DNA from: Vicinamibacterales bacterium
GTDB lineage: Bacteria > Acidobacteriota > Vicinamibacteria > Vicinamibacterales > UBA8438
Length of the DNA: 64,000 bases
Assembly (NCBI GenBank): GCA_965217045.1
Contig: OZ244229.1
Coordinates: 265,768-329,767 of the forward strand
Direction: 5' to 3'
Part shown: in pieces, positions 1-55,508 of the stretch
Position numbering within the stretch: the stretch's first letter is position 1
Layout of the letters: the number at the start of each line of letters is the position of its first letter
Program-made: the position numbers and the translations under genes
The notes under the pieces: generated by a model
The model's input: only the letters and a program-made list of their open reading frames with translations
Database searches by the model: none
Told to the model about the DNA's origin: nothing

Positions 1-229
1 CGCGCGTCGTCGGCATGTCGTAGACCGCCTTGGCCACGAAGGCTCGCGCCAGTGCCGCGCGGTCCTTGCGCGGACGCCCCGGCACCCGGAAGCACCGGGG
101 AATCCACTGCTCGATACGGATGACCTCGAGAGTCTGCACCAACTGCTGCTGTTTCCCGGTCAGCGGACCCAACACGGGCTCCAACTGGGGGAACAGCGCA
201 CGCTGGATCGACTGCCAATAGGGGGCGAA

Positions 230-1097
230 GTAGAGTCGAGGAGAGGCGCGTAGCCGGTAGGGGGTCGGTGGCTTATCCGGCGCTTTCGCAATCGGGCCGC
301 AGGCCGAGTCCCGTGGGTACGTTTCCTCCCCCCGCTCTCCGAACCCGGCGGGCCGATTTCCGGCACCGGGCTCTCCAGTGGAATCATGCGGCTCGCGCAC
401 GGGCTTCCCGGTCACGACCAGCGGACGGGTCTCGCGAGCCCTGGCACCAGGCTCGCACCCTTGAGCCGGCCGGCCGGTGCGTCGTCAGGCCTGTTGACGC
501 CCTGGCGACGGCGACCGCTCGGGTCGTCCCCTTCGCTTGTGCATGTGATGACATCCGGCATTCCTGCTCATCTCCGGGGTGATAGGCCGTTCGGCCACTC
601 CCGTGAGCCTGCTCCCTTTCGCCATCGCTTCCACCTGAGGTCCCTTCCCTCCGCCGGCATTACCCGGCTTCCTCGGTACCTACGGACCTCTCCGCCACCC
701 TGACCGGCCCGACCTGACCCTCGCGGGCTGTCCGTTGGCGCGTGCCACGCCACCGGCAGGGCTTCCCGTGTTGCGACCAATCCCCTCTTCCACACGTGCC
801 GCCGCCATTACCCCGGCGGAACCGGTCGGTGCTCGCGTCGCTCGCTTCCCGACCGCTGGCAGCCTTCCCCGTTATTCCGGCGGGTCGGCTTCCGCGTTAC
901 CCGTTTCGAGGCCTGCTCGGCGTTCAACGTCGTTGCGGCCCGCGTGGTCGCTGAACCGCCCAAGGCGGCCCTTTGTCGTCGGAGTGCTTCAGCCGATGTC
1001 GTTGCCTCCGTCGTCCGCTCCGACTGCTACCGGCTGGAGCGACAGTTGCCGGGCGGGATTCGCACCCGCTGAGGAATGGCACCTTGTCACGGCGCAC
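230..1097 (-). ncRNA. ORF-less group II intron (868 nt)
   Basis: This insert is absent from the paralogous site 55068/55069. On the minus strand it starts GUGCGCC and ends CUCUAC, and lies exactly between codons 7 and 8. A domain V motif is at 373-341. No RT/maturase ORF is present in six frames. Confidence 0.75.
341..373 (-). ncRNA. group II intron domain V
   Basis: The minus-strand sequence is GAGCCCGGUGCCGGAAAUCGGCCCGCCGGGUUC. The lower helix GAGCCCGG/CCGGGUUC carries the AGC triad, there is a 2-nt 3' bulge, and the upper helix GCCG/CGGC is capped by a GAAA-containing loop. Confidence 0.75.
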
Positions 1098-1190
1098 GGA
1101 ACCACGCAGGCTGTTCATGGTGTGTTTGATTGACCGCTCCTGCCAACTACTGTATATTGGCGGACAATGAAGATGTGAAGCAGCGAATCG

Positions 1191-1652
1191 ATGGCCTACA
1201 GCGCAGCGTTACGCCGCTATGAGGAGCAATACGACGCGCTCAAGGCGGAACTGCAAACCCTCGGGTTCATGGGCCAGGGTAGCGTTCACACCCGCCGGAT
1301 AACGTGTGGGAGGGCTACCTGTCGCTGCCACGACGACCCGGACGCCCGTCACGGCCCCTACCACTACTGGACGCGCAAGGCCCGCGGAAAGACCGTCGGC
1401 TTGAAGCTCACCGAAGACGAACTCGTCCTCTACCGGGAGTGGATCGAGAACAACCGTAAACTGGAACGGCTCGTGAAGGAAATGCGCCACCTCTCTTCGT
1501 GTGCGCTTGCCCTCATAACCGTAAACTGGCACGGCGTGAAGGAAATGCGCCACCTCTCTTCGTGTGCGCTTGCCCTCTCCATGAACCCCCGTGTCGCCGG
1601 CTTCCCGGGCGCGGTCACTGCCATCCTGCGAACGCTGCATCCCGCCCGCTGA
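1191..1652 (+). CDS. small Cys-rich IS accessory protein (DUF6788-like; motif CGRATCRCH...HGPYHYWTRK), C-terminus altered by a tandem duplication
   Basis: ORF track. It is a paralog of 55161-55508, lies divergent from the transposase, and is inside the IS boundaries in both copies. Confidence 0.6.
   Translation: MAYSAALRRYEEQYDALKAELQTLGFMGQGSVHTRRITCGRATCRCHDDPDARHGPYHYWTRKARGKTVGLKLTEDELVLYREWIENNRKLERLVKEMRHLSSCALALITVNWHGVKEMRHLSSCALALSMNPRVAGFPGAVTAILRTLHPAR
1454..1577 (+). repeat. tandem duplication, about 65-bp period (units 1454-1518 and 1519-1577)
   Basis: CCGTAAACTGG[A/C]ACGG..GTGAAGGAAATGCGCCACCTCTCTTCGTGTGCGCTTGCCCTC occurs twice, so the peptide VKEMRHLSSCALAL is repeated. Copy 2 (55425-55500) has a single unit. 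Confidence 0.85.
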
Positions 1653-1802
1653 CCGTCCCTCGCCCCGCCGCCTCCGGCAAGGAAAAAACTCGGCCGATCA
1701 CGCGTTTCGCAAGAGGCTCATTGGGTAAGCTGGCTCATGGCACGGAAGCGGCGCCGCCCGCGGCCGGCGCCTGCGCCGGGTCCGGCGTCGCCTCCTCCGC
1801 CG

Positions 1803-11980: not shown

Positions 11981-14844
11981 CTACGCTCGAACCGTCGAGA
12001 TCACGGAACTCGTGCCCGATACCTGGCCCGAAGCATGGCTGCCGCTGATGGCGCCGCGGTTGCGCCCGACCAGGCCGCCGACGTTTTCCGTGCCCGTTAC
12101 GACGCCAGTGACGTGGCTGTCGGTGATAGAGCCCGAGCTCGGGAGCGTACCGACCAGACCACCGACGTTGACATTGCCGGTCACGTTGACGTCGACCAAG
12201 CTGATTCCGGTCAACCCGCCGGAACGCCCAGCGACAGGCGTCCCGACAGACCCGAACAAGGCGACACTACCAACCTGCGTCGGCCGGTTGATGAACAGAT
12301 TGGCGATTGCGTGGCCGTTGCCCTTGATGCTGAACCTTGCCGGGAAGGGGAACCACCCGGCGCCGTCGTCCCAGTAGTCGTCGCCCGCGTCGGCACCCCC
12401 GCTCCCGTTCGTGTCGAAGTCCAGGTCCGCCTCCAGTTCGTAGCCGACGCATCCGTCCGGACATCCCATGCCCAGCGCGCCCTCGGCGAACGCCGACGTT
12501 GCGTAGTAGGACGTCCAGTTCGCGACTCTATCCACCGCACCGTCGGCATCCTGGTCGTAGCGCATGGCATCGAGTTGCGCCAGGTTGGAGATCTCGATAT
12601 AGCCGTCGTCGTCGGTGTCGTAGTCCCGCGTCCCCGGCGTGACCGTGACCGTGACCGTCCGCACCGCGCTCAGCCCATCGGGATCGGTCGCCCGCACCCA
12701 CACCGCGATGCGCCCGGGGGCGAGCGGCGTCAGGGTCAGGGCAGACCCGCTCATGCTGGCCGTGACGTAATCGGGATCGGTCGACAACGCCGTGTAGGTC
12801 AAGGAGTCGGTGTCCGGGTCGGCGAACCCGCTCTCCACGCTCAGCGTCACCGCGTCGGCGCCCGGGGCCAGCGTCGGCACGCTCAGGGTGCCCTCCACGG
12901 TCGGCGCCTCGTTGCGGTCCGCCGCGGCCACGTCCACCGCATCGACCGCACCCGGCGCCATCACGATCCCGGCGCCCGAGTCTCTGTCCACGCCTGTCGC
13001 CTCGATGTCCAGCGCGGACCCGGTCAGCGCCGTGCGAAGGCCCGCCAGCGTGACCTTCGCCGGACCGCCAGCGGCCTCCAGCAACAACGCGCCGATCCCT
13101 GCGGCGTGCGGCGCCGCCGACGAGGTGCCGCAGAACGTCGCGAATTCAGGTGCCGACGTCGAAACGCACGTCGCCGCCACGATGTCCGGCTTCTGTAGCA
13201 GTTCCCCGCCGGTCGACGAGAAGTTCCCGGCTGTAATCGGCGCGCCGTCCGCCTCGAAGAACATCCGGCGCGGCCCGTCCGAGCTGTCCGTCCGGATCGA
13301 CTCCGTGCCATCGAAGACACCGCCGGCTCCGGCAGCGGTGCGAACGTCGACGGCACCGACGGTCACCGCTTTCTCGGCGGCCGAGTGTCTGGCCGGCGGT
13401 CGCGACCGCCAACTGCCCCCTGAACGTGTCGAGACGCAGATAGCGGTTCGCCGCACCGGAGGCCTTGACGACAACCAGACGGGCATCGGCGTGGTCCGAG
13501 GAGGAATTGATGGACTCGATCGGGTCCTGCGAGCCGTCCTGCGAGTTGGTCGAGCTCGCGAGCACGTTACCGTCGGCGTCGACCAGGAAGAGGTCGTAGT
13601 CGTTCGCGGACGCCCCCAGTGGATCCGCCCACTGGAGGACGAGAGAGGCCGACCTTCGTGATCCGGTTCTCTTCCACACCGCCGCCGAAGTCGTGGGCCT
13701 TGCCGACCGAGACACCGTCGACCTCGAAGTCCGTTCCCTCGGCGTAGTCCCCTTCCCAGACCCCCGACGTGCCGTCGTTGAGATTGCCAGCGTTGCCGGC
13801 GGAGGAAAAGAGAAAGCAGCCGTCGGCAGCCGCGTCGTTCACCGCCCGCGCCACGACGCCGTCCCGAAAGACTGGTTCGAGAAAACAGAAGATGTCGTCG
13901 ACGATGACGTCCGCGCCGGCAGCGCACAGGTCCTCGATGTTCTGCGCCAGCCGCGCCTCCCCGCCACGGCCTGTGGCGAAGTACAGCTCGGCGCCCGGCG
14001 CGAGATCGTGGGCGATCTCGAGCATGGCCGTTCCCTCGTCGCCGCCCTGGCCCGTTACGAGACCAGCGATCGACAACGGCCCGCCCTCCTGTCCGGGCAG
14101 CACCGTCACCTGCGAGGGCAGATCCCCCGACGCCTGACGCTCGGCGAGGGTCCTGACACCGTCCGAGATCACGCCAATCCCTATACCGGTGCCGTCGACG
14201 CCGTATATGGTGCGTGCCAGGTTCGACCGGTGGGCCATGTCGCCCGCCGAGGCGTTGTCCTTGCGAGTTATCGCTTGATCCGGCATGCCCCTCGCAGCGA
14301 GCGGGGCCGCCGACACCTGAGCTGCCGTGCTCGCCTTGTCCGCCGGCCGGATCGCACGAACCGCGTCCAACGCGGCCAGGCGCTCGATGGAAGCAATGGG
14401 AAGCAAGGCCCGGACGGACCGATACCTGGGTACGCTGTTGACGACCGAGCCGCCCAGCTCACGGATGCGCGCCAGCACCGCTGGTGTGACGTCGGCCCGG
14501 ATGTCCACCAGCACCCGGCCGCCCCCGGCTGGCCCGTCGGGAACCTGCTCGACAGGCTCTACTTCCTCCCGCGGCGGCCGGCGCGACCGCCGCGGCGCCT
14601 CGGCTGCCGCCAGCTTCAGCAGCCCCGAGCCGACCTTGCGCTGCGCGGGTGTCCGCTGCGCCTTTGCGGGCAGGAGTGCGGCGATCTCAGCGCGCGCTCG
14701 CCGTGCAGCCGCCGTCGGTGGTGTTGCTTCCCCCCGCACGCCTGCGGGTACCGGGCGGCCCGGCTTGGCTGTGCCGGACTGGGACCCGAGGCTCGTTGGA
14801 GTGACACCAGGCTGCGTTCCGCCGCCCACCTCTGGTAGCGGCAA
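11981..14844 (-). pseudogene. S8 (subtilisin-like) serine peptidase with C-terminal GLUG-type (GGLVG) repeats; two frameshifts
   Basis: Three consecutive frames carry one protein. 14844 to about 13645 holds GIGIGVISDG and the propeptide-like region. About 13645 to 13380 holds LQWADPLGASANDYDLFLVD. About 13380 to 11981 holds GTSSAAPHAAG (catalytic Ser) followed by GGLVG repeats. Confidence 0.75.
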
Positions 14845-15448
14845 GATGAAAAGGACTCCTCACCATTTTGCAAGTGTCTTTTTGCGTCGTCGTGACGGCG
14901 GTCGAGATGGGCGTGAGGTGACGGGATGGCGCATGGACGCTGCCGTCGCCGTGGACGCAAAGAACGCGCCCACCGCGCCTTGGACACGCCGCAGACGACG
15001 TGCCCACAGCGCCCACGAGCCGTTTCGTCATCGGACTCGCCAAGGCGTGGCGAATGTCGATCGAGAGCGTGTGTTACGAGTTCACGCGGTGACATTTCCT
15101 GCACGGTGCGGGTCGAAGCAGGTGCCGTCGCGGAGCATGGCGCAGGCGACGTTGAGCAGGCGGTCGGCCACTGAGCGCAGGGAGCGGGCGTGTCCATGGC
15201 CGCGGCTGCGCAGCGCCTGATACTTGGCGCGGCTGACCGGGTCGCGGTGGGCAGCGACGCGAGCCCAGTGGTAGGCGGCGTCGCGCAGCCGGTCGTGGGC
15301 AGCCAGGCGGCGCACCACGAGCAGGCTCTTGCCCGAACGCCGGGTGACCGGCGCCACCCCGCAGAGACAGCGAAGCGCGGCGTAGTCCCGCCGCCGCAGC
15401 GCGTCGCTGAGGTTGCCCCGATCTCGTGGACAGGTTAAGGCTTTCGGT

Positions 15449-16414
15449 TCACGTCATGGTGTGTACATCAACATTGATTCCTGTGGTCGGTGTGGATCCC
15501 GTGCGCAGCGCGGGATCCAACGGACTTGTGGGCGCCCGTAGGGCGTCCACAGGCCGGGCACCGTCCACAGCGCCGGCCTGATGGAGCCGTTCGAACTCCA
15601 GTGGCGCCCGGTAGCCGAGCGCGGAGTGACGCCGCCGTGTGTTGTACCACCCCTCGATGAACTCGAACAACGCCGCCCGTGCTTCGGCGTGCGTTGACAG
15701 CGTCGTTCGGTCGAGCAGCTCGCACTCCAGGGTCGCGAAGAAGCTCTCGGCCATCGCATTGTCGAAGCAATCGCCGACCGAACCCATCGATAGCGCGACG
15801 CCCCGTTCCCGGCAGCGAGCGCCGAAGGCCAGCGAGGTGTACTGGCAGCCTTGGTCGGAGTGATGGATGACCGCCTCGGGCCGCCGTTGCGCCACGGCCA
15901 TCTCCAGCGCCTCGACCACCAGCGCGGTGCGAAGATGCCCCGCCATGGCCCAACCGACGACGCGCCGGCTGAACACGTCGAGGACGATGGCCAGGTACAG
16001 GAAGCCGGCCAGGGTCGGGACGTAGGTGATGTCGGCGACCCAGAGCCGGTTCGGCGCGTCCGCCTCGAAGCGCCGCTCGACCCGATCCGGGGCCGGGCGG
16101 GCCTGGGCATTCCGGCGTGTCGTGCGAGGGCCGCGGCGCCGGCTCACCCCGGCGACGCCGACGGACCGCATGACCCGGGCGACCCGCTTGCGGCTCACCG
16201 CGACACCGCCCTCGGTCAGTTCGGCGTGAATCCGAGGAGCACCATACGTCCCTCGACTCCGGCCGTGAATCGCCTGGACGCGAGCCCGGAGCTCGGCATC
16301 GGCCCGTGCCCGAGCCGACGGAGGACGACGACGCCACGCGTAGTACCCGCTCGGGGAGACACCGAGCACCCGGGCCATCGTGGCGACACGGAAACGAGCC
16401 TGATTCGCGCTCAT
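15449..16414 (-). CDS. IS3 transposase OrfB (rve integrase core)
   Basis: ORF track. Motifs WVADITYV, HSDQGCQYTS and NAMAESFFATLECEL. Confidence 0.9.
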   Translation of the reverse strand: MSANQARFRVATMARVLGVSPSGYYAWRRRPPSARARADAELRARVQAIHGRSRGTYGAPRIHAELTEGGVAVSRKRVARVMRSVGVAGVSRRRGPRTTRRNAQARPAPDRVERRFEADAPNRLWVADITYVPTLAGFLYLAIVLDVFSRRVVGWAMAGHLRTALVVEALEMAVAQRRPEAVIHHSDQGCQYTSLAFGARCRERGVALSMGSVGDCFDNAMAESFFATLECELLDRTTLSTHAEARAALFEFIEGWYNTRRRHSALGYRAPLEFERLHQAGAVDGARPVDALRAPTSPLDPALRTGSTPTTGINVDVHTMT

Positions 16415-16719
16415 GACCCGGTAGGTCTCCCGGGTCGGGTCTCCCGCGCGAACCAGGCCGTTGCCTTTGCCAATATCTCTCGCTCTTCGCGCAGGCGCCG
16501 GTTCTCCCGGCGCAGCCGGCGAAGCTCTTCACGCTCCTCCGTGCGCAGCCCGTCGCTGCGCTCGCCCGCATCGCGGCCCACCTGCGCGACCCAGGTTCGG
16601 ATCGCCTGGGACGACGGCTCGAACTCGCGAGCCAGGTCCTCCGGCGCACGTCCGGACCGAACCAGGTCGACCATCTGTTGCCGGAACTCCGCCGCGTACG
16701 GTGGTCTCGTCTTCGGCAT
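16411..16719 (-). CDS. IS3 transposase OrfA (HTH)
   Basis: MPKTRPPYAAEFRQQMVDLVRSGRAPEDLAREF... with a leucine-zipper-like tail. It overlaps orfB by ATGA. Confidence 0.85.
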   Translation of the reverse strand: MPKTRPPYAAEFRQQMVDLVRSGRAPEDLAREFEPSSQAIRTWVAQVGRDAGERSDGLRTEEREELRRLRRENRRLREEREILAKATAWFARETRPGRPTGS

Positions 16720-17980
16720 CGCGGATACTCCTTCTCCCCCCAAGAGGATAGGTGTCCACGAAACCGGGGCAACTTCATCGCTACCCTCGGCAAGCAGACA
16801 AGCGAGGACGCCGGTGCCGATGCCGGGCAGCGATAGCAGGATGGCCGCGTCGGGCGGCGGTGGCGACGGCTCTGGCTCGCTCTCGGCGGGCGCGTCCGGG
16901 TCTTCCGCCGGTGCGGCCTCGGCGAGCTGGTGCACCAATCGGTCGAGCTGGCTGCGCGTGCGCCAGTTGCCGGTTGACCAGTACGAGGCGTTCGGCGACG
17001 AGCCGCACATGCGCGGCGGCGGCCTCGGCGGCACCTGGCGCGACCCGGACGGCCGGCGCCCGCAGCCGGTCACACAGCGTCGCGGCGTCGACCCGGCGGA
17101 TGCGGTGCTGTTTCAACAACTTGGCGAGCGTCGCTTCGCGAACGCGCTGCGCCGCAACCGGCGTCGGCAGGCGCCGCCACAGGGCGAGCGCCCAGGACGC
17201 CGCGACATCGTCGCTGGTCGCGGCGAGCAGCTGCGGGTAGTAGCGCCAGAGCTGCTCGCGCATCCGGTTCGCCTGGCGAACGCGTTCCCGCGTAATCTCC
17301 TCGCTCAGGCGCGACCACTCCCGCAACTCGACGATCGCTGGGTCGGTCGGCTCCAGCCGCCGCAGACAGTGCGGGTCGGTGCGTAGCGCCGAGGCCAGCA
17401 CCCGCGCATCCCGTCGGTCATCCTTCGCCCCCGCCGGCGAGATGCGGTCGCGGAAGCGGTCGAGCTGCTTCGGATTGATCGCGTGGACAGCGAAGCCCCG
17501 TTCCATCAGGCTCTCGACCACCGGCCCGCGCGGTGTCTCGATCGCCACGCCGACCTGCTCCGCCTTACCCGCCGTAAAAGACAGAAGCCAGTCCGCCATC
17601 TCCGACAGCCCCTGGCCGCCATGCTCGAACGCCCGCTCGCCGAGCAGCTTCCCGGCAACGTCGCTTACGCACGCTTGGTGCGTCTGCGATCCCCAGTCGA
17701 CACCCACGAACCAGGCCAGCTCCACATCGAACCTCCTATCTGCCGCATTTCACGGGCGCGCCAACGATGCCTGCCGGTCCCTGTACTGGCGCTCGATGGC
17801 GCAAACTCCCCACGGGGCATCCATCGCTGGCTGAACGCCGGGGCACAAGTCCTTTTCAAGTGCTCGAGACACAGGGACCCCTCGGTGGCTCCCGGCGGCC
17901 TGCCCGACTCCGCGAGATTTGAGATTTACCCGCGCGAAGTCATTGAGAAAGGTACAGGGACCCCGTGGCCACTTGAAATG

Positions 17981-19726
17981 GACTCCCCACCATTTTGCAA
18001 GTGCCTTTTTGCGTCGTCGTGACGGCAGTCGAGATGGGCGTGAGGTGACGGGATGGCGCATGGACGCTGCCGTCGCGGTGGACGCAAAGACGCGCCCACC
18101 GCGCCTTGGACACGCCGCAGACGACGTGCCCACAGCGCCCACGAGCCGTTTCGTCATCGGACTCGCCAAGGCGTGGGGAATGTCGATCGAGGGCGTGTGT
18201 TGCGAGTTCACGCGGTGACATTTCCTGCACGGTGCGGGTCGAAGCAGGTGCCGTCGCGGAGCATGGCGCAGGCGACGTTGAGCAGGCGGTCGGCCACTGA
18301 GCGCAGGGAGCGGGCGTGTCCATGGCCGCGGCTGCGCAGCGCCTGATACTTGGCGCGGCTGACCGGGTCGCGGTGGGCGGCGACGCGAGCCCAGTGGTAG
18401 GCGGCGTCGCGCAGCCGGTCGTGGGCAGCCAGGCGGCGCACCACGAGCAGGCTCTTGCCCGAACGCCGGGTGACCGGCGCCACCCCGCAGAGACAGCGAA
18501 GCGCGGCGTAGTCCCGCCGCCGCAGCGCGTCGCTACCCTCGGCAAACAGACAAGCGAGAACGCCGGTGCCGATGCCGGGCAGCGATAGCAGGATGGCCGC
18601 GTCGGGCGGCGGTGGCGACGGCTCTGGCTCGCTCTCGGCGGGCGCGTCCGGGTCTTCCGCCGGTGCGGCCTCGGCGAGCTGGTGCACCAATCGGTCGAGC
18701 TGGCTGCGCGCGTGCGCCAGTTGCCGGTTGACCAGTACGAGGCGTTCGGCGATGAGCCGCACATGCGCGGCGGCGGCCTCGGCGGCACCTGGCGCGACCC
18801 GGACGGCCGGCGCCCGCAGCCGGTCACACAGCGTCGCGGCGTCGACCCGGCGGATGCGGTGCTGTTTCAACAACTTGGTCAGCGTCGCTTCGCGAACGCG
18901 CTGCGCCGCAACCGGCGTCGGCAGGCGCCGCCACAGGGCGAGCGCCCAGGGCGCCGCGACGTCGTCGCTGGTCGCGGCGAGCAACTGCGGGTAGTAGCGC
19001 CAGAGCTGCTCGCGCATCCGGTTCGCCTGGCGAACGCGTTCCCGCGTAATCTCCTCGCTCAGGCGCGACCACTCCCGCAACTCGACGATCACTGGGTCGG
19101 TCGGCTCCAGCCGCCGCAGACAGTGCGGGTCGGTGCGTAGCGCCGAGGCCAGCACCCGCGCATCCCGTCGGTCATCCTTCGCCCCCGCCGGCGAGATGCG
19201 GTCGCGGAAGCGGTCGAGCTGCTTCGGATTGATCGCGTGGACAGCGAAGCCCCGTTCCATCAGGCTCTCGACCACCGGCCCGCGCGGTGTCTCGATCGCC
19301 ACGCCGACCTGCTCCGCCTTACCCGCCGTAAAAGACAGAAGCCAGTCCGCCATCTCCGACAGCCCCTGGCCGCCATGCTCGAACGCCCGCTCGCCGAGCA
19401 GCTTCCCGGCAACGTCGATTACGCACGCTTGGTGCGTCTGCGATCCCCAGTCGACACCCACGAACCAGGCCAGCTCCACATCGAACCTCCTATCTGTCGC
19501 ATCTCACGGGCGCGCCAACGATGCCTGCCGGTCCCTGTACTGGCGCTCTGCGGCGCAAACTCCCCACGGGGCATCCATCGGAGGCTGAACCGCCGGGGCA
19601 CAGGTCCTTTTCAGGTGCTCGATGCACAGGGACCCCCTGGGTGCTCCCGGCGGTCTGCCCGACTCCGCGAGGCCATCCCGCGAAGTCGTCCGGAAGGGTA
19701 CAGGGACCCCGTGGCCACTTGAAATG
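17981..19726 (-). mobile_element. IS110-family element, copy B (variant), head-to-tail with copy A
   Basis: Right end GACTCCCCACCATTTTGCAAG from 17981. Left end ...GTGGCCACTTGAAATG at 19726, followed by GGACCCCC of the IS21. The terminal 7 bp are shared or ambiguous with the IS21 end. Confidence 0.85.
18208..19479 (-). CDS. IS110-family DEDD transposase (423 aa)
   Basis: ORF track. N-terminal FVGVDWGSQTHQACV and C-terminal LLSLPGIGTGVLA motifs. It differs from copy C at about 7 residues. Confidence 0.9.
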   Translation of the reverse strand: MELAWFVGVDWGSQTHQACVIDVAGKLLGERAFEHGGQGLSEMADWLLSFTAGKAEQVGVAIETPRGPVVESLMERGFAVHAINPKQLDRFRDRISPAGAKDDRRDARVLASALRTDPHCLRRLEPTDPVIVELREWSRLSEEITRERVRQANRMREQLWRYYPQLLAATSDDVAAPWALALWRRLPTPVAAQRVREATLTKLLKQHRIRRVDAATLCDRLRAPAVRVAPGAAEAAAAHVRLIAERLVLVNRQLAHARSQLDRLVHQLAEAAPAEDPDAPAESEPEPSPPPPDAAILLSLPGIGTGVLACLFAEGSDALRRRDYAALRCLCGVAPVTRRSGKSLLVVRRLAAHDRLRDAAYHWARVAAHRDPVSRAKYQALRSRGHGHARSLRSVADRLLNVACAMLRDGTCFDPHRAGNVTA

Positions 19727-20422
19727 GGACCCCCTGAGCACTCGGAAACAGCGCTCGCCTGGCGATAATCGAGGTGGCGAGACACGGTCGTCTCGTCGAC
19801 CGAGCCAGGAGGACGCGGAGGTGATCAGGATGTCCCAGTGGGTCGAGGTCCGCCACCTGCATCTGGTGGAGGGTGTGCCGAAGAAGGAGATCGCCCGTCG
19901 GTTGAAGTTGGATGTCAAGACGGTGCGGCGGGCCATCGGCCGGCCGACGCCGCCGGTGCGGGTGTCGCCGCCGCGGCCCAGCACCCTGGCCCCGTGGCGG
20001 GAGCAGATCAAGCAGTGGCTGTGCGCGGAGCCGCGGTTGACTGTCAGCAGTCACTTCGAACTGATCAATTCTGGACGCGTGTCGGTGCACCGGGCCGGTT
20101 GCCTGGTTCGTCGACGTCTTGATGAAGAAGAAGATGATGGCTGTGGTCGCTGTGCGAAACTGCGTCTGCGCGGTTTTGCAAACTCCTGTGGGCGCGGTTG
20201 TTTGCGTCCACAGGAGTGGCGGCGTCCACAGCCTCCGGAGCTGGCGGGCAGCGACTCGTTCGGGTAGCGTAGGCAGCGGGCTGAAACGTGGGGTGAGGGC
20301 CCGGTATGGCCAGCGGACCCTCGTGACCGCCCCGAGCTCCGACAGAGCGAGCCGGTCGGTGCTGTTGTGCCACGGTTCGAACGCGTTGTCCAGTCGGAGA
20401 TCGCCCCGCGCGCTCCGACGCC

Positions 20423-22300: not shown

Positions 22301-23188
22301 GGACAGTGATCGATATAAGGTTGCCACGTGCATCCAGGCGGAGCCCGTTTTCTGCGGCTTCGGGCGCTCGGCACACAGCAAGGTAATTTCCGTCAGTGTC
22401 CTAACCTCCGGCGACTCGGCTTCAACCGCACCGCCGACGACCTCAACGACCTCATCGCTCAGGCCGCCCGCAAGCGCTCGAGCGCCACCGTCCTGCTCGA
22501 ACACATCGTCGCCGCTGAGCTCGAAGACAAACAGCGCCGTAGCGTCGAGAGCCGACTCACCCGCGCCCGTCTCGGACGCTTCAAGCCGTTCGCCGACTGG
22601 GACTGGCAATGGCCCACCGCGCTGGACCGTCCCACCCTCGAACGCATCCTCACGCTCGACTTCCTCGCCCGCGGCGAGAACGTCATCCTCGTCGGTGCGC
22701 AAGGCTTGGGGAAGACCATGCTGGCGAAGAACGTCGCCCACCAAGCCATCCTCACTGGGCACACCGCCCTCTTCACCACCGCCGCCGATCTGCTGCTCGA
22801 CCTCAATGGACAGGAGACCGCACGCGCCCTCGAACGACGCCTCCGGCACTACACGCGGCCCGCGCTCATCGTGGTCGATGAGGTGGGCTACCTCGCCTAC
22901 GACGCCCGAGCCGCCGACCTGCTCTTCCAACTCGTCAGCCGCCGCTACGAGCACCGCTCCTTGCTCATCACCACCAACCTGCCGTTCAAGCGCTGGGACA
23001 CCGTCTTCCCCAACGCCTCGTGCGCCGTCGCACTGATCGACCGGCTGACCCACCACGTCGAGATCCTGCTCCTTGAAGGCCGGAGCTATCGCAGGCGCGA
23101 GGCCGAGATCAGCCAGCAGGAGCGAAACCGCCAACGATCGCACCGTGACGACGCGCCGGAATCACCGCGACCCTCACGTCGTCAATGA
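22257..23188 (+). pseudogene. istB: IS21 IstB (b), interrupted after codon 14 by a MITE
   Basis: MPSADTTTTTTLAT(22257-22300) joins NLRRLGFNRTADDL... in frame once 104 bp (MITE plus one TAA) are removed. Walker A GAQGLGKTM. Confidence 0.8.
22301..22401. mobile_element. 101-bp MITE derived from the ISAzo13-like element ends
   Basis: Inverted ends GGACAGTGATCG... and ...CGTCAGTGTCC, flanked by TAA at 22298-22300 and 22402-22404. The arms match the ends of the element at 57429-58723 (about 22/25 and 22/28). Confidence 0.75.
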
Positions 23189-24505
23189 GACCGGTCGATA
23201 CCTGTGCAGAAATGATCAGTTTCTCGCGCTCGGCAACAGTTGACCGCCAAACGGATTCGCCGGTTGCTGCTGCCGTTGGCCGGACCGCTCCCGGCTCGCA
23301 CGGTGCGCCGCTACGTCGCGGGACTGCGGGCAGCCGGCACCGCGAAGGAGGCTTTCGTGCACCGTAGCGTGCTCCCCGGCACGACGATGGAGGTCGACTT
23401 CGGCGAGTCGTGGGTCGATGTCGCCGGCGTGCCGTGCAAGGTGAAGTACCTGGTGGCGACGCTGCCGTTCTCCAACGCGTACTTCGCCAAGGCGTACCCG
23501 GTTGAGCGTCTCGAGTCGCTGCTCGACGGCATCGAGTCGGCGTTTTGGTACCTTCGGGGGCGTCGTGAAACGCCTCGTCCTGGACAACACCTCGCTGGCG
23601 GTCAAGAAGGTGTTGGCGGGCCGGGACCGGGTGCAGACCGAGGCGTTCGAAGCATTCCGGGGCGGGTATCCCTTCGGTGCCGAGTTCTGCGCGCCGGCCA
23701 AGGGCTGGGAGAAGGGTTCCGTGGAGGGCGGTGTCAAGTACGTCCGCAACCTGGTGTTGCGGCCGCGGCTGGCGGTGGCGAGCTGGGCGGCGCTCAACGC
23801 GGCGATCCTCGCCGAGCTGGAGGCGGACCTGCCGACGCGCCACCTCGACGACGGGCGCTCGGTGCAGGACGCGTTGACACTGGAACGGCAGCATCTGCGA
23901 GCGATGCCCGTGCACCTTCCCGCCACCTGCCGCGTCGTCGCGCGAGTGGCCGACAAGTTCGGACACGTCCGGGTGGACCACGTCACCTACTCGGTACCGA
24001 TCCGCCACGCCTACCGGCCGGTGTGGGTGAAGCTGTATCACGACCGGGTGGCGGTCGCCGTCGGCGCCGAGGTGGTGGCGCAGCACGCCCGCGCGTTCTG
24101 CAGAGGCACGAAGGTCCTCGATGCGTTTCACGTGCTGCCGTTGCTCGAGCGCAAGCACCGGGCGGTGGCCGAGGCGACGGCGCTCGTCGACTGGCCGCTG
24201 GCGCCGGTGTGGCGGCAGGTGCGGGCCGAACTGGCCAGGCACACGCGCAAGCCCGATCAGGAGTGGGTCCGGATGCTGCGGCTGATGGAGACGCAGCCGG
24301 CCGCGGCCGTCGAGCGCGCGGTGACGGCCGCGCTCGAGCGCCATTCGCCGCGTCTCGAGACGGTGCGGCTCCTCCTGCGCCAGCAGCAGAGTGGCCCGCC
24401 GCCGGTGTGCCGGCCGGTGACGGGGGTGCGTCCGGAACTGGCGCAGATCGTGGTGCCCACCCCGACGCTGTCGGCGTATGACGCTCTGGTGGAGGGCCGT
24501 TGCTA

Positions 24506-25294
24506 ATGGTGACCGCGATTGCCGAGCCGCCGCATTTGGAGACGGACCTGAAGACGCTGTGCCTGTCGACGGTCGCGACGCAGTGGCGGCCGCTGGCCGA
24601 GCAGGCCACCCGCCAGCGTCAGCCGCCGGCCGACTACCTGGCTCAGTTGGTCCATCTGGAGGTGACCGGCCGCCGGGAGCGCCGCATCCAACGCCGCATC
24701 CAGGATGCTCGCTTCCCGATGCTCAAGACGCTCGACGCCTTCTCGTTCGACGCACAGCCGGACCTGGACCGCGACGCGGTCCTGCACATCTTCGACTGCC
24801 GCTTCGTCGCCGACGCCGCCAACGTCGTGTTCGTCGGCGGAGTCGGCACGGGGAAGACGCATCTGTCGATCGCGTTGGGGATGGCCTGCTGCCAGCACGA
24901 CTACCGGGTGCGGTTCGTGACCGCCGCCGAACTGGTCACGCTGCTCGTCGAAGCGCAGCAACAGGGCCGACTGCAACGCAAGCTCGACCAGCTCGCCCGC
25001 TACGACGTCGTAATCCTCGACGAACTGGGCTACGTGCCGTTCGACAAGGCCGGCGCCGACCTGCTGTTCGGCTTCATCAGCCAGCGCTACGAGCGCCGGA
25101 GCCTCGTCGTGACGACGAATCTGCCGTTCGCGCGCTGGTCCGAGGTGTTCCTCGACACCACGGCCGCCGCCGCGGTCATCGACCGGATCGTCCACCACGC
25201 CACCGTGTTGACGACCGCCGGCGACAGCTACCGGCTCAAGACCGCCACACGCAACCAGGCGTCCCGCGCGCCACAGGAGGTGCCACGGCAATAG
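24506..25294 (+). CDS. istB: IS21 helper ATPase IstB (a)
   Basis: Walker A GGVGTGKTH and Walker B VVILDELGY. Its ATG overlaps the istA stop (TAATG). Confidence 0.9.
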   Translation: MVTAIAEPPHLETDLKTLCLSTVATQWRPLAEQATRQRQPPADYLAQLVHLEVTGRRERRIQRRIQDARFPMLKTLDAFSFDAQPDLDRDAVLHIFDCRFVADAANVVFVGGVGTGKTHLSIALGMACCQHDYRVRFVTAAELVTLLVEAQQQGRLQRKLDQLARYDVVILDELGYVPFDKAGADLLFGFISQRYERRSLVVTTNLPFARWSEVFLDTTAAAAVIDRIVHHATVLTTAGDSYRLKTATRNQASRAPQEVPRQ

Positions 25295-25297
25295 CGC

Positions 25298-25350
25298 TCA
25301 TCGCGACGTGGCCTCCCGTCGCTCCGCTCCGTCCGGCCACGTCGCGATGA
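25298..25350 (+). terminator. 16-bp perfect hairpin just after the istB (a) stop
   Basis: TCATCGCGACGTGGCC (25298-25313) pairs with GGCCACGTCGCGATGA (25335-25350) across a 21-nt loop. There is no U-tract. Confidence 0.4.
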
Positions 25351-25376: not shown

Positions 25377-25632
25377 CATTTCACGTGGCCACAAAGGTCC
25401 CTGTACCTTTCTCAATGACTTCGCGCGGGTAAATCTCAAATCTCGCGGAGTCGGGCAGGCCGCCGGGAGCCACCGAGGGGTCCCTGTGTCTCGAGCACTT
25501 GAAAAGGACTTGTGCCCCGGCGTTCAGCCAGCGATGGATGCCCCGTGGGGAGTTTGCGCCATCGAGCGCCAGTACAGGGACCGGCAGGCATCGTTGGCGC
25601 GCCCGTGAAATGCGGCAGATAGGAGGTTCGAT
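25377..25632 (+). ncRNA. candidate structured non-coding RNA in the IS110 left end (bridge-RNA-like)
   Basis: This is 256 nt of non-coding sequence upstream of the GTG start. It has an 11-bp long-range complement (25396-25406 with 25572-25582) and several internal hairpins. It also has an 11-mer that is the reverse complement of the element's right junction. See the findings. Confidence 0.4.
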
Positions 25633-26904
25633 GTGGAGCTGGCCTGGTTCGTGGGTGTCGACTGGGGATCGCAGACGCACCAAGCGTGCGTAAGCGACGT
25701 TGCCGGGAAGCTGCTCGGCGAGCGGGCGTTCGAGCATGGCGGCCAGGGGCTGTCGGAGATGGCGGACTGGCTTCTGTCTTTTACGGCGGGTAAGGCGGAG
25801 CAGGTCGGCGTGGCGATCGAGACACCGCGCGGGCCGGTGGTCGAGAGCCTGATGGAACGGGGCTTCGCTGTCCACGCGATCAATCCGAAGCAGCTCGACC
25901 GCTTCCGCGACCGCATCTCGCCGGCGGGGGCGAAGGATGACCGACGGGATGCGCGGGTGCTGGCCTCGGCGCTACGCACCGACCCGCACTGTCTGCGGCG
26001 GCTGGAGCCGACCGACCCAGCGATCGTCGAGTTGCGGGAGTGGTCGCGCCTGAGCGAGGAGATTACGCGGGAACGCGTTCGCCAGGCGAACCGGATGCGC
26101 GAGCAGCTCTGGCGCTACTACCCGCAGCTGCTCGCCGCGACCAGCGACGATGTCGCGGCGTCCTGGGCGCTCGCCCTGTGGCGGCGCCTGCCGACGCCGG
26201 TTGCGGCGCAGCGCGTTCGCGAAGCGACGCTCGCCAAGTTGTTGAAACAGCACCGCATCCGCCGGGTCGACGCCGCGACGCTGTGTGACCGGCTGCGGGC
26301 GCCGGCCGTCCGGGTCGCGCCAGGTGCCGCCGAGGCCGCCGCCGCGCATGTGCGGCTCGTCGCCGAACGCCTCGTACTGGTCAACCGGCAACTGGCGCAC
26401 GCGCGCAGCCAGCTCGACCGATTGGTGCACCAGCTCGCCGAGGCCGCACCGGCGGAAGACCCGGACGCGCACGCCGAGAGCGAGCCAGAGCCGTCGCCAC
26501 CGCCGCCCGACGCGGCCATCCTGCTATCGCTGCCCGGCATCGGCACCGGCGTCCTCGCTTGTCTGCTTGCCGAGGGTAGCGACGCGCTGCGGCGGCGGGA
26601 CTACGCCGCGCTTCGCTGTCTCTGCGGGGTGGCGCCGGTCACCCGGCGTTCGGGCAAGAGCCTGCTCGTGGTGCGCCGCCTGGCTGCCCACGACCGGCTG
26701 CGCGACGCCGCCTACCACTGGGCTCGCGTCGCTGCCCACCGCGACCCGGTCAGCCGCGCCAAGTATCAGGCGCTGCGCAGCCGCGGCCATGGACACGCCC
26801 GCTCCCTGCGCTCAGTGGCCGACCGCCTGCTCAACGTCGCCTGCGCCATGCTCCGCGACGGCACCTGCTTCGACCCGCACCGTGCAGGAAATGTCACCGC
26901 GTGA
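25633..26904 (+). CDS. IS110-family DEDD transposase (423 aa)
   Basis: ORF track. GTG start 6 nt after AGGAGG. Confidence 0.9.
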   Translation: MELAWFVGVDWGSQTHQACVSDVAGKLLGERAFEHGGQGLSEMADWLLSFTAGKAEQVGVAIETPRGPVVESLMERGFAVHAINPKQLDRFRDRISPAGAKDDRRDARVLASALRTDPHCLRRLEPTDPAIVELREWSRLSEEITRERVRQANRMREQLWRYYPQLLAATSDDVAASWALALWRRLPTPVAAQRVREATLAKLLKQHRIRRVDAATLCDRLRAPAVRVAPGAAEAAAAHVRLVAERLVLVNRQLAHARSQLDRLVHQLAEAAPAEDPDAHAESEPEPSPPPPDAAILLSLPGIGTGVLACLLAEGSDALRRRDYAALRCLCGVAPVTRRSGKSLLVVRRLAAHDRLRDAAYHWARVAAHRDPVSRAKYQALRSRGHGHARSLRSVADRLLNVACAMLRDGTCFDPHRAGNVTA

Positions 26905-27133
26905 ACTCGTAACACACGCTCTCGATCGACATTCGCCACGCCTTGGCGAGTCCGATGACGAAACGGCTCGTGGGCGCTGTGGGCACGTCGTCTGCGGCGT
27001 GTCCAAGGCGCGGTGGGCGCGTCTTTGCGTCCACGGCGCCGGCAGCGTCCATGCGCCATCCCGTCACCTCACGCCCATCTCGACCGCCGTCACGACGACG
27101 CAAAAAGACACTTGCAAAATGGTGGGGAGTCCT

Positions 27134-53846: not shown

Positions 53847-55133
53847 TTATGTCACGAGGCGCACGAGTTGGTCGGCGGTGAGTGCGAGCACGCCGAACAT
53901 GCAGTGGCACATCACTTTCGAGGCGCCACGGACCCGGACATGGCGACCGCCGAACTCGTCCTTGAGTCGGCCATTGACGCGCTCACCCGCCGTACGCTCG
54001 TTGTAGCGAGCCTGCTCGGGAAGCTGAAAGCCGATACGCTGCAGGCGCCGGGCTTCGGTTCGCAATTCCTCCGCCAGCGCCTTGTCGCGGCGGGGGTTGG
54101 TGTCAATCAACGGGACGTGGCCGAGTGAGCGGCTGTGCTGGCGGATCGGTTCCGCGTCGTAGGCGGCGTCCATCAGGTCATACAGATTGGTCGTTCGCTC
54201 GGCCGACAAGGTCGCCAGCGGAATGGCGGCTTGGCTGTCGTGCAGGGAGGCGGACGTCAGCAGGCAACTGATCGGAATCTGGCCGTCGGCCACGTCGAGG
54301 TGCAGCTTGTAGCCGACCCAGGTCGACTTGTAGCCCTTGCTGTCCTTTTTCATGCCCACGTCACAGTCGGTCGGCAGGTCGTCGAGCATCGCCGGCAAGG
54401 TCATGGCCGCCTGCCGGTCGAGGCGCTTGAGGACCTTCGGCCGTTCCTCACCCTTCTTCGGCCGTCCCCGCTTGCGCTTGGGCAGCGGGGGCGTCTTTTC
54501 CTTCGCGGCCGGCTTCTCGCGGGCCTCGATGGCCGTCGAGTCGCGGCAGAGGTGACCCACCAACCGGTCGTGGTGGGTGTTGCGGATCAACGCTGCATGC
54601 GTGCGCTGGGGCAACTGTGTGTCGGAGAACTCGACGAAGGCGCGTGAGAAGACCGACTCGCTCGGCACCTCGCTCTTCCGCTCCCAGCCGCAGATCCGGG
54701 CCGCAGTGCCACCGGTCGTCGGTGACCAACGCTGCGCGTCCAGCAGCACGCGCGCGTCGGCAGACCGACTCGCTCGGACCTCGCTCTTCCGCTCCCAGCC
54801 GCAGATCCGCCGCAGCGCCACGTCGGCGTCCAGCAGCACGCGCGTCGTCGGCATGTCGTAGACCGCCTTGGCCACGAAGGCTCGCGCCAGTGCCGCGCGG
54901 TCCTTGCGCGGACGCCCCGGCACCCGGAAGCACCGGGGAATCCACTGCTCGATACGGATGACCTCGAGAGTCTGCACCAACTGCTGCTGTTTCCCGGTCA
55001 GCGGACCCAACACGGGCTCCAACTGGGGGAACAGCGCACGCTGGATCGACTGCCAATAGGGGGCGAAGGAACCACGCAGGCAGTTCATGGTTTGTTTGAT
55101 TGACCACTCCTGCCTACTACTGTATATTAGCAA
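53847..55133 (-). CDS. DDE transposase (DUF772-type N-terminal domain plus DDE_Tnp_1-type core); the likely true start is MNCLRGS at 55088
   Basis: ORF track. GRPRKDRAALARAFVAKAVY and YKLHLDV...LMDAAYDA...NERTAGERVNGRLKDEFG. It contains an internal tandem duplication. Confidence 0.85.
   Translation of the reverse strand: MLIYSSRQEWSIKQTMNCLRGSFAPYWQSIQRALFPQLEPVLGPLTGKQQQLVQTLEVIRIEQWIPRCFRVPGRPRKDRAALARAFVAKAVYDMPTTRVLLDADVALRRICGWERKSEVRASRSADARVLLDAQRWSPTTGGTAARICGWERKSEVPSESVFSRAFVEFSDTQLPQRTHAALIRNTHHDRLVGHLCRDSTAIEAREKPAAKEKTPPLPKRKRGRPKKGEERPKVLKRLDRQAAMTLPAMLDDLPTDCDVGMKKDSKGYKSTWVGYKLHLDVADGQIPISCLLTSASLHDSQAAIPLATLSAERTTNLYDLMDAAYDAEPIRQHSRSLGHVPLIDTNPRRDKALAEELRTEARRLQRIGFQLPEQARYNERTAGERVNGRLKDEFGGRHVRVRGASKVMCHCMFGVLALTADQLVRLVT
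54651..54853 (-). repeat. in-frame tandem duplication of about 112 bp inside the transposase gene
   Basis: GACCGACTCGCTCGG(C)ACCTCGCTCTTCCGCTCCCAGCCGCAGATCC...GTCCAGCAGCACGCGCG occurs at 54651 and again at 54763. The peptide ICGWERKSEV and the RVLLDA motif are repeated. Confidence 0.8.
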
Positions 55134-55160
55134 ACATCAAGGATGTGAAACAACGAATCG

Positions 55161-55508
55161 ATGGCCTACAGCGCAGCGTTACGCCGCTATGAGGAGCAAT
55201 ACGACGCGCTCAAGGCGGAACTGCAAACGCTCGGGTTCGTAGGCCAGGGCGGCGTTCACACCCGCCGGATAACGTGTGGGAGGGCTACCTGTCGCTGCCA
55301 CGACGACCCGGACGCCCGTCACGGCCCCTACCACTACTGGACGCGCAAGGCCCGCGGAAAGACCGTCGGCTTGAACCTCACCGAAGACGAACTCGTCCTC
55401 TACCGGGAGTGGATCGAGAACAACCGTAAACTGGAACGGCTCGTGAAGGAAATGCGCCACCTCTCTTCGCGTGCGCTTGCCCTCATAACCGGCAGGCAGG
55501 CTCCATGA
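55161..55508 (+). CDS. small Cys-rich IS accessory protein (DUF6788-like)
   Basis: ORF track. 115 aa, paralog of 1191-1652, and inside the IS boundaries. Confidence 0.6.
   Translation: MAYSAALRRYEEQYDALKAELQTLGFVGQGGVHTRRITCGRATCRCHDDPDARHGPYHYWTRKARGKTVGLNLTEDELVLYREWIENNRKLERLVKEMRHLSSRALALITGRQAP

What the first reader, a model, noticed from the sequence alone, without database searches (positions are those of the whole stretch)
19590..19700. Variant copy B differs from A/C mainly inside the left-end non-coding region, at hairpin loops and at the junction-matching motif
The transposases differ at only about 7 of 423 residues, but the left ends are much more diverged by eye (roughly 15-20% over about 110 nt).
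- A CGCG-closed hairpin has a different, 9-nt shorter loop. Copies A and C have CGCGCGGGTAAATCTCAAATCTCGCG, and copy B has CGCGGGATGGCCTCGCG (plus-strand 19666-19682).
- The motif CTTGAAAAGGACTTG becomes CCTGAAAAGGACCTG (plus-strand 19601-19615), with two parallel T-to-C changes.
- GAGGGGTCCC becomes AGGGGGTCCC, which gives a 9/9 match to the IS21 terminus GGGGGTCCC.

Changes concentrated in putative guide loops are what re-targeting of an RNA-guided recombinase would look like.
Basis: seen in the sequence. Interest (0 to 1): 0.6.

Follow-up and report, generated by a model that had tools for sequence, protein, structure and literature searches.

The report
Chimeric IS110 with swapped bridge-RNA module
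Copy B of this IS110-family insertion sequence got the first ~155-185 nt of its guide ("bridge") RNA gene by recombination with a lineage common in another genus, while still aiming at the same IS21 end repeat, so it is an instructive but ordinary variant of the RNA-guided recombinase system described in 2024.

Summary
Copy B differs from A and C at 37 of 234 left-end columns, against 12 of 1272 coding bases (7 of 423 residues). All three quoted motifs sit at the stated coordinates.

The left end encodes an IS621-type bridge RNA: a 5' hairpin, a target-binding loop and a donor-binding loop. The structure and the guide-flank covariation hold across 23 relatives.

The divergence is not a build-up of point mutations in guide loops.
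- B is a chimera. Its first ~155-185 nt are 97-98% identical to elements of another genus (G095, G097, G098). The rest is 97-100% identical to the ~18 co-resident copies and only about 75-88% (coding region) identical to G095.
- The crossover lies in the invariant 3' side of the donor-binding loop.
- Most B-specific changes fall in hairpin loops, stems (kept paired) and linkers. Donor guides are unchanged.
- The core-proximal target guides (GGGGTC-CC, GAAAAGG) are unchanged, and B sits in the same IS21-family end repeat as the other copies.
- The two "parallel T-to-C" changes are lineage markers.

Only one change is B-specific within a guide: one extra G, which gives an 11-nt match to the inner IS21 site. 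B does not occupy that site.

Earlier scan notes had already called this left end a bridge RNA gene. Re-targeting is only weakly supported.

The parts
17980..19704 (-). IS110-family copy B, both core CC copies included (left core 19703-19704, right core 17980-17981)
   Evidence: Ends defined by comparing occupied and empty IS21 ends.
18208..19479 (-). Recombinase/transposase gene of B, 423 aa (DEDD_Tnp_IS110 plus Transposase_20)
   Evidence: Pfam hits of 122.5 and 52.1 bits. NCBIfam NF033542 'IS110 family RNA-guided transposase', 164.7 bits against a cutoff of 140. Weak hit to the IS621 structure 8WT6, with SG(K)S aligned to the catalytic Ser motif.
19519..19687 (-). Bridge RNA gene of B: 5' stem-loop, target-binding loop and donor-binding loop
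   Evidence: RNAalifold consensus and pair counts on 23 relatives: 98% of cells paired against 33-43% when the partners are slid, and 8 compensatory pairs.
19661..19687 (-). 5' stem-loop (SL1): 9-bp stem GACUUCGCG/CGCGGAGUC with loop GGAUGGCCU (19670-19678).
   Evidence: The loop varies freely among relatives. The majority copies carry a 7-nt tandem duplication, AAATCTC, in it.
19583..19660 (-). Target-binding loop module: lower stem, internal loop and apical hairpin (19615-19627)
19629..19639 (-). Left target guide plus core of B: CAGGGGGTC-CC (A/C have GAGGGGTC-CC; G095 has CAGGGGTC-CC)
   Evidence: Across at least 12 target classes, 6-10 nt of this position match the left flank in most elements. 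Coordinates.
19603..19614 (-). Right target guide CUGAAAAGG (19606-19614) plus handshake guide ACC (19603-19605). The reverse complement is GGT-CC-TTTTCAG.
   Evidence: Reverse complement of donor-left end, core and right flank. It covaries with the right flank in relatives, for example GACAAGG with CC-TTGTC and CCTGCGG with CC-GCAGG.
19519..19580 (-). Donor-binding loop module: left donor guide GTGGGGAGTTT (19557-19567), apical hairpin (19543-19556), right donor guide plus handshake guide GTACAGG-GACC (19530-19540)
   Evidence: The left donor guide equals the right-end terminus GTGGGGAGT. The right donor guide plus handshake guide is the reverse complement of the left junction GGTC-CC-TGTAC. 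It is identical in B, A and C.
19518..19549 (-). Crossover interval of the chimera. Left of it (19549-19704) the sequence is G095-lineage. Right of it (17980-19518) it is majority-lineage.
   Evidence: Informative sites: 32 G095-like against 1 majority-like in positions 1-160, and 8 against 248 in positions 191-1497. Fisher P = 7e-34.
19705..19747 (-). IS21-family end repeats flanking B on its left. They include the unoccupied inner site CAGGGGGTC-CC (19726-19736), which matches B's left target guide 11 of 11.
17959..17979 (-). IS21 end-repeat unit (ATTTCAAGTGGCCACGGGGTC) lying between B's right core and A's left core
14853..17958 (-). Copy A (majority type), interrupted by an IS3-type insert at about 15409-16777. 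The IS21 tip TTTTCATCTTGCCGCTACCA follows at 14833-14852.
25400..27132 (+). Copy C (majority type). CDS 25633-26904, SL1 25417-25452, left target guide 25475-25484, right target guide 25499-25507, donor-binding loop 25532-25593. The IS21 tip is at 27133-27152.

Best explanation
The three copies are IS110-family, IS621-like elements. Their 233-nt left end encodes a bridge RNA. Its first internal loop (left target guide ..GGGGTC-CC, right target guide GAAAAGG) recognises a repeated motif, ..GGGGTC-CC-(T/A)TTTC.., in both ends of a resident IS21-family element, about 20 bp or more from its tip. Its second loop (left donor guide GTGGGGAGT, right donor guide GTACAGG) recognises the element's own joined ends.

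Copy B is a recombinant. A crossover inside the invariant 3' half of the donor-binding loop joined two pieces. [quoted passage not shown] The other is the 3' left end, recombinase gene and right end of the lineage that is multi-copy in this genome.

Both parental lineages target the same IS21 end repeat. The swap therefore left the target class unchanged, and the excess divergence reflects the age of the two lineages rather than selection on B. Since the swap, B's module has gained one extra G in the left-target-guide G-run, one stem change (G.U to A-U) and one change upstream of the hairpin.

Shown here: the boundaries, the structure, the guide-flank covariation and the chimerism. Inferred: that the RNA is made from a promoter formed at the circle junction, that B is active, and that the crossover was homologous recombination, for example between tandem copies in adjacent IS21 repeat units.
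For: - Protein family.
- True ends and target, from more than 40 empty and occupied IS21 ends in the genome.
- The host element's transposase is IS21 family (NF033546, 218.9 bits).
- Bridge RNA architecture and covariation.
- Guides track the flanks in more than 12 target classes.
- The handshake-guide logic matches Hiraizumi et al., and the loop layout matches Durrant et al..
- Chimerism, identity: B positions 1-200 are 97% identical to G095/G097 but 72-93% to copy C. From 200 onward B is 97-100% identical to C and about 75-88% (coding region) to G095.
- Chimerism, informative sites: 32:1 before the breakpoint and 8:248 after it.
- The pair closing the donor-binding-loop stem (columns 124/188 of A1) is broken only in B. 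B has the 5' partner C seen in G003 and the divergent G000 copies, and the 3' partner U of the majority, as expected for a junction between lineages.
- The G095-type left end occurs in at least 8 copies in G095, in the same IS21-type ends.
- A second, independent module swap exists in G022. L015/L020 are 75-77% identical to L002 over the first 120 nt and 93-100% after it, with a different target.
Against: - No G095-type parent element is present in this assembly, so where and when the crossover happened is unknown.
- B is single-copy, so there is no evidence that the chimera transposes.
- RNA expression, the circular intermediate and the junction promoter were not tested.
- A few discordant sites exist: 1 majority-like site within the G095-like block and 8 G095-like sites in the CDS.
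Confidence: 0.82

Rival explanations
1. Point-mutational re-targeting. B's left end diverged in place under selection for a new target, with the changes focused on guide loops.
For: B's left target guide gains an 11 of 11 match to the IS21 inner site CAGGGGGTC-CC. Within the family, small left-target-guide changes do track new targets, for example G120 ACGCGGTC and G123 AAGCGGAT, each matching its own flank. One G000 copy has a right-target-guide change A to G that matches its unusual right flank TTTCC.
Against: 32 of B's 36 informative left-end differences are shared with G095/G097/G098, so they were inherited as a block. Only about 4-6 of 37 differing columns lie in guides. The core-proximal guide positions are unchanged. 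B occupies the same IS21 repeat class as the majority copies, not its best-matching site 23 bp away. Positions -7 and -8 of the left target guide mismatch the targets in most lineages without preventing insertion.
Confidence: 0.07
2. The majority copies, not B, are the recombinants, and B carries the original combination of left end and body.
For: The comparison of B, C and G095 alone is symmetric.
Against: The majority left end and the majority CDS both track the same outside relative, G022 L002 (left end 93-97%, CDS 93-94%). B's left end tracks G095, whose CDS is only about 80% identical to B's. The majority copies are therefore internally coherent and B is not.
Confidence: 0.05
3. Relaxed constraint: B's bridge RNA gene is decaying in a dead copy.
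For: B is single-copy, and one closing pair of the donor-binding-loop stem is broken.
Against: All the other stems stay paired or improve: U.G to C-G, G.U to A-U, and one extra C-G pair. The recombinase ORF is intact. The same left-end sequence is multi-copy, and so presumably active, in G095.
Confidence: 0.03
4. Assembly artefact or contamination produced the odd left end.
For: The region is a nest of repeats, and homopolymer-length variation is seen in many IS21 ends. Reads could not be inspected.
Against: The 155-nt G095-type block occurs nowhere else in the assembly, so a collapse or mis-join of resident repeats cannot create it. It is flanked on both sides by sequences that are correct for this locus. 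Estimated contamination is 1.3%.
Confidence: 0.03

Closest known systems
IS621 (E. coli) bridge RNA and recombinase (Durrant et al. 2024, PMC11208160; Hiraizumi et al. 2024, PMC11208158)
   Same: A DEDD plus Ser recombinase. An RNA encoded in the left end with a 5' hairpin and two internal-loop modules. The 5' loop side equals the top strand of the left half-site plus core, and the 3' loop side is complementary to the core plus the right half-site. Handshake guides are complementary to the non-cognate partner. A putative promoter is split across the joined ends.
   Different: The protein similarity is only distant (E = 6e-9 to 8WT6). The recombinase is 423 aa, against 328 aa for the 8WT6 chain. 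The core overlap is CC(T) rather than CT. The left target guide is 8-9 nt and the right target guide 7-9 nt. The right end is long (226 nt). The target is the end repeat of an IS21-family element. There was no Rfam match.
IS110/IS1111-family elements that insert into the ends of other mobile elements or into repeats, e.g. IS4321/IS5075 in Tn21-family inverted repeats and ISPpu9/ISPpu10 in REP sequences (IS4321/IS5075 from my own knowledge; ISPpu9 PMC12288879; ISPpu10 bioRxiv 10.64898/2026.03.19.712850, abstract)
   Same: Orientation-specific insertion at a fixed position in a repeated sequence. The result is many copies per genome and tandem or adjacent insertions.
   Different: Here the target is the multi-unit transposase-binding repeat of an IS21-family element. 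One IS21 end can take two or three IS110 copies in neighbouring units.
Expanded or tandem IS110 loci and half-match recombination (bioRxiv 10.64898/2026.08.14.744561 and 10.64898/2026.08.31.748434; abstracts only)
   Same: Repeated insertion next to an existing copy, and tolerance of partial guide matches.
   Different: Those papers concern cargo capture and excision. The point here is an exchange of the guide-RNA module between lineages by a crossover in the conserved donor-binding loop. I did not find that described, but I made no exhaustive search.

Membership tests
IS110 family (bridge-RNA-guided recombinase elements) | N-terminal DEDD (RuvC-like) domain | tested here: met
   PF01548, 122.5 bits, residues 7-164. 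The motifs D10 and KDDRRDA align to IS621.
IS110 family (bridge-RNA-guided recombinase elements) | C-terminal Tnp domain with the catalytic serine | tested here: met
   PF02371, 52.1 bits. RRSGKS aligns with IS621 YESGSS around S241. NF033542 scores 164.7 bits against a cutoff of 140.
IS110 family (bridge-RNA-guided recombinase elements) | No terminal inverted repeats, and insertion without duplication beyond a short core shared by donor and target | tested here: met
   Empty site ..GGGGTC-CC-TTTTC.. compared with the occupied junctions ..GGGGTC-CC-TGTACC and ..GGGGAGT-CC-TTTTC. Whether the core is CC or CT cannot be told from the left junctions. Inner-site insertions (right junction CC-ATTTC) favour CC.
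IS110 family (bridge-RNA-guided recombinase elements) | Non-coding RNA with a 5' stem-loop and two stem/internal-loop/hairpin modules | tested here: met
   RNAalifold on 11 and on 23 relatives. Pair counts: 98% paired, 8 compensatory pairs, and 0 of 500 shuffles as good.
IS110 family (bridge-RNA-guided recombinase elements) | Loop 1 guides match and covary with the insertion-site flanks | tested here: met
   In most elements, 6-10 nt of the 5' loop side match the cognate left flank, across more than 12 target classes. The 3' side matches the right junction for 9-12 nt in most elements where the right end was recovered.
IS110 family (bridge-RNA-guided recombinase elements) | Loop 2 guides match the element's own joined ends | tested here: met
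   The left donor guide GTGGGGAGT equals the right-end terminus. The right donor guide GTACAGG is complementary to CC-TGTAC.
IS110 family (bridge-RNA-guided recombinase elements) | Handshake guides complementary to the non-cognate DNA | tested here: met
   ACT in the target-binding loop pairs with the donor's AGT (majority copies). GACC in the donor-binding loop pairs with the target's GGTC. B has ACC, which pairs at 2 of 3 positions. The donor-loop handshake guide covaries with the end of the left half-site in relatives.
IS110 family (bridge-RNA-guided recombinase elements) | Circular intermediate whose junction forms the promoter of the RNA, and an RNA that is actually made | not testable with these tools
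By eye, the joined ends give TTGCAA, 17 nt, then TACCTT (TACCCT in B), about 7 nt upstream of SL1. This is inference only.
IS110 subgroup (as opposed to IS1111 subgroup) | RNA encoded upstream of the recombinase in a long left end, with a short right end | tested here: inconclusive
   The left end is 233 nt and carries the RNA, so that part is met. The right end is 226 nt, which is not short. The criterion comes from the legend of Durrant et al..
Rfam RNA families | A match to any curated covariance model | tested here: not met
   No hit at gathering thresholds in the window. Only noise (E > 4) over 19400-19760.

The most novel reading that the evidence does not exclude
In this IS110 subfamily, the SL1 plus target-binding-loop cassette behaves as an exchangeable module. 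Crossovers in or just before the invariant donor-binding loop move guide cassettes between recombinase lineages, even across genera. This gives a natural route to swapping or fine-tuning target specificity. Two independent cases were seen:
- B in this window, where the target class is kept.
- G022 L015/L020 against L002, where the target changed.

On top of this, single-base indels in the left-target-guide G-run (G095 GGGG, B GGGGG, G097 GGGGA) would tune the choice among the neighbouring IS21 repeat units.
Probability: 0.4. Interest if true: 0.5.

Novelty: new member of a known kind. Interest (0 to 1): 0.3.

Why it matters
The locus shows, with natural sequences, how bridge-RNA elements diversify. 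Whole guide cassettes are shuffled by recombination at the conserved donor-binding loop, while the donor guides and the recombinase stay put.

It also supplies a well-populated natural data set: about 20 occupied and more than 25 empty target sites in one genome, plus relatives with at least 12 target classes. This can be used to ask how many guide positions really matter in vivo. Positions -7 and -8 of the left target guide mismatch the targets in most lineages, yet insertion still occurs.

The finding does not change the known mechanism. It also corrects the element boundaries used in neighbouring notes of this scan.

Tried and rejected
I rejected it after finding the same 23 nt in empty IS21 ends, and copies that lack it.
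- I considered a CT core, as in IS621. All left junctions are compatible with it, but inner-site right junctions read CC-A, so CC is preferred.
- Rfam gave no bridge RNA family match.
- An exact search for B's left-target-guide 22-mer in 185,579 species genomes returned one hit, in Microvirga. It shares no homology beyond the pattern, so it is chance.
- Two metagenome scans for B-type sequences found nothing.
- The plasmid collection gave no near match. It gave only 72-77% scaffold matches in alphaproteobacterial plasmids.
- Single-sequence folding of truncated RNAs was uninformative for the majority copy (z = -0.3). The comparative fold was used instead.
- RNAalifold's two pairs inside the right target guide (columns 93-94/103-104 of A2) were dropped as implausible.
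Full report
**What is there.**
The window holds three copies of a 1.73-kb element.
- B lies at 17980-19704 on the minus strand.
- A lies at 14853-17958 on the minus strand and is split by an IS3-type insert at about 15409-16777.
- C lies at 25400-27132 on the plus strand.

The 423-aa protein has the DEDD_Tnp_IS110 and Transposase_20 domains. It passes NCBI's equivalog model for 'IS110 family RNA-guided transposase'. It aligns weakly to the IS621 structure, with the acidic and serine motifs in place. The genome (G000) contains about 20 further copies.

**The observation.**
An exact alignment of B and C gave these counts:
- Left-end non-coding region: 37 differing columns of 234 (84.2% identity).
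- CDS: 12 of 1272 (99.1%).
- Right end: 7 of 226.
- Differences per 50 nt from the left tip: 20, 8, 4, 3, 2, 1, 0...

The proteins differ at exactly 7 residues, and the clustering is highly non-random (P about 1e-13 to 1e-19).

**Boundaries and target.**
- The segment CATTTCA(A/C)GTGGCCAC..GGTCC is present in many empty sites and absent next to some copies.
- It is a repeat unit of the ends of a 2.55-kb element whose transposase is IS21 family (NF033546, 218.9 bits).
- Both ends of that element carry one to three such units, followed by a 20-nt tip (..TTTTCATCTTGCCGCTACCA or ..TTTTCTAGTTGCCATTTCCA).
- The IS110 element inserts between GGGGTC-CC and (T/A)TTTC of a unit, always with its left end facing the IS21 interior.
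- Donor and target share only CC(T).
- Right junctions at inner units read CC-ATTTC. This fits a CC core better than the CT core of IS621.

B and A therefore occupy neighbouring units of a three-unit IS21 end and are separated by 21-22 nt (17959-17979). They are not joined end to end. A comparable pair sits in a two-unit end on contig C11.

**The left end encodes a bridge RNA.**
An alignment of 23 distinct left ends from G000 and 17 other genomes of the same family folds into three parts:
- a 5' stem-loop;
- a first module made of a stem, an internal loop and a hairpin;
- a second module of the same kind.

With that structure, 98% of cells form standard pairs, against 33-43% when the partners are slid. 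Eight pairs show compensatory change, and 0 of 500 shuffles reach the observed values.

The scaffold is nearly invariant, while two short segments of the first loop are hypervariable.
- In most elements, 6-10 nt of the 5' segment repeat the left flank plus core, across at least 12 different target classes.
- The 3' segment is the reverse complement of the right junction.

This is the layout Durrant et al. describe for the target-binding loop.

In the second loop, GTGGGGAGT equals the right-end terminus, and GTACAGG is complementary to CC-TGTAC at the left-end start.

The three or four bases 3' of each core-binding dinucleotide pair with the other partner: ACT with the donor's AGT, and GACC with the target's GGTC. 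These are the handshake guides of Hiraizumi et al..

Rfam has no matching model.

**Where B's differences fall.**
Mapped on the structure, the differences are as follows.
- Five substitutions lie in the first 17 nt of the left end, outside the reach of the right donor guide.
- Thirteen columns lie in the SL1 loop. This includes the 9-nt length difference, 7 nt of which is a tandem AAATCTC duplication peculiar to most majority copies.
- Several stem changes keep or improve pairing: U.G to C-G twice, G.U to A-U, and one added C-G pair.
- Four changes lie in the two apical hairpin loops.
- Two changes lie in the linker.
- In or next to guides, the scaffold and left target guide change from CCACC-GAGGGGTC to CACC-CAGGGGGTC. 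There is one change at the 5' edge of the right target guide (U to C) and one at the third handshake position (U to C).

The donor guides and the core-proximal target guides (GGGGTC-CC, GAAAAGG) are identical. About 4-6 of 37 differing columns lie in guide segments. That is no more than their share of the region.

**Origin of the divergence.**
A search of all 104 genomes of the family found left ends 95-98% identical to B's in another genus: at least 8 copies in G095, plus G097, G098 and G089. Along the whole element:
- B is 97% identical to G095/G097 over the first 200 alignment columns.
- B is about 75-88% identical to them through the coding region.
- Against copy C the pattern is reversed: 72-93%, then 97-100%.

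Informative sites split 32:1 (G095-like to majority-like) in B positions 1-160 and 8:248 in positions 191-1497 (P = 7e-34). The switch falls between positions 156 and 187 (window 19549-19518). That stretch is the invariant 3' side of the donor-binding loop.

The pair closing the donor-binding-loop stem is broken only in B. It has the 5' base of one lineage group and the 3' base of the majority.

The majority left end and CDS both track the same outside relative, G022 L002, at 93-97%. B is therefore the recombinant.

The two 'parallel T-to-C changes' are lineage markers.
- CUG at the edge of the right target guide is the state in nearly all relatives, and the majority's UUG is the derived one.
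- ACC is shared by G095, G097, G089 and one other G000 element.

**Does B have a new target?**
Relative to G095, B's module has three private changes.
- One is an extra G in the left-target-guide G-run (CAGGGGTC to CAGGGGGTC). G097 has an extra A at the same place.
- The extra G gives an 11 of 11 match to the inner IS21 site GCTCAGGGGGTC-CC at 19726-19736.
- B is not in that site. It sits one unit further out, at CCACGGGGTC-CC-ATTTCAAG. There its contiguous match (8) equals that of the majority guide, and its right target guide fits slightly worse than the majority one.

Majority copies occupy all the site variants (CACGGGGTC, CAAAGGTC, CAGGGGGTC, ATGGGGGTC) despite mismatches at -7 and -8. 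G095-type copies do the same in their genome.

The data show no change of target class. At most they allow a modest, untested tuning of site preference. The G-run length could not be verified against reads.

**Context in the family.**
Real re-targeting does occur among relatives.
- In G022, L015/L020 are 93-100% identical to L002 from position 120 onward, but only 75-77% over SL1 and the target-binding loop. They insert at GGGAGCGA-CC rather than in IS21 ends.
- G120 and G123 differ by a few left-target-guide bases that track their flanks.
- One G000 copy outside the window has a single A-to-G change in the right target guide that matches its unusual right flank TTTCC.

**Verdict.**
This is an ordinary member of the IS110 bridge-RNA system, which an earlier follow-up in this scan had already recognised for copy C. 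It carries a natural chimeric guide cassette. The findings of modest interest are the clean cross-genus module swap with a breakpoint in the conserved donor-binding loop, the multi-unit IS21 end as a target array, and the corrected boundaries.

Not tested: RNA expression, circle formation and activity of the chimera.

Noticed in passing
G000 contig C2, about 2740946-2744151 (outside the window): A majority-type copy sits in a non-IS21 site (TAGTGTC-CC-TTTCCGG). Its right target guide carries a single A-to-G change (TTGGAAAGG) that matches the unusual right flank. The copy is itself interrupted by an insert of about 1.45 kb.
   Followed up: partly
L002, L015 and L020 (genome G022): This is a second chimeric pattern. 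L015/L020 share 93-100% identity with L002 from position 120 onward, but only 75-77% over the 5' hairpin and the target-binding loop. They target GGGAGCGA-CC rather than IS21 ends.
   Followed up: partly
window 15409-16777: Copy A is interrupted by an insert of about 1.37 kb. Its 321-aa ORF (15449-16414, minus strand) has the HTH_21 and rve domains, so it is an IS3-type transposase.
   Followed up: partly
L082 1672-2544 (G000 C11), equivalent to window 24478-25350: The second ORF (290 aa) of the 2.55-kb IS21-family host element has no IstB_IS21 or AAA match in Pfam or NCBIfam. The nested IS21-b copy in the window (22328-23188) does have a clear IstB.
   Followed up: partly
many G000 sites listed: IS21 ends vary in the number of 23-nt repeat units (1, 2 or 3). 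They also vary in the C-run and T-run lengths exactly at the IS110 crossover point (TCCTTTTC, TCCCTTTC, TCCCTTTTC). These could be excision footprints, natural variation or homopolymer assembly errors.
   Followed up: no
window 25417-25452 and most majority copies: There is a 7-nt tandem duplication, AAATCTC AAATCTC, in the SL1 loop. It is absent from two G000 copies (C1:194938 and C2:442723) and from all relatives.
   Followed up: no
window 1-1686 and 54839-55610: Two copies of a group II intron end are present, with Rfam hits RF02003 at 928-1071 and RF00029 at 259-375 (both minus strand). They form direct repeats with 94-100% identity.
   Followed up: no
window 17982-18207 and 26905-27130: The right end is unusually long for an IS110-group element (226 nt). 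It diverges almost completely between the G000 and G095 lineages except for the last ~50 nt. Its function is unknown beyond supplying the putative -35 box and the left donor half-site.
   Followed up: no
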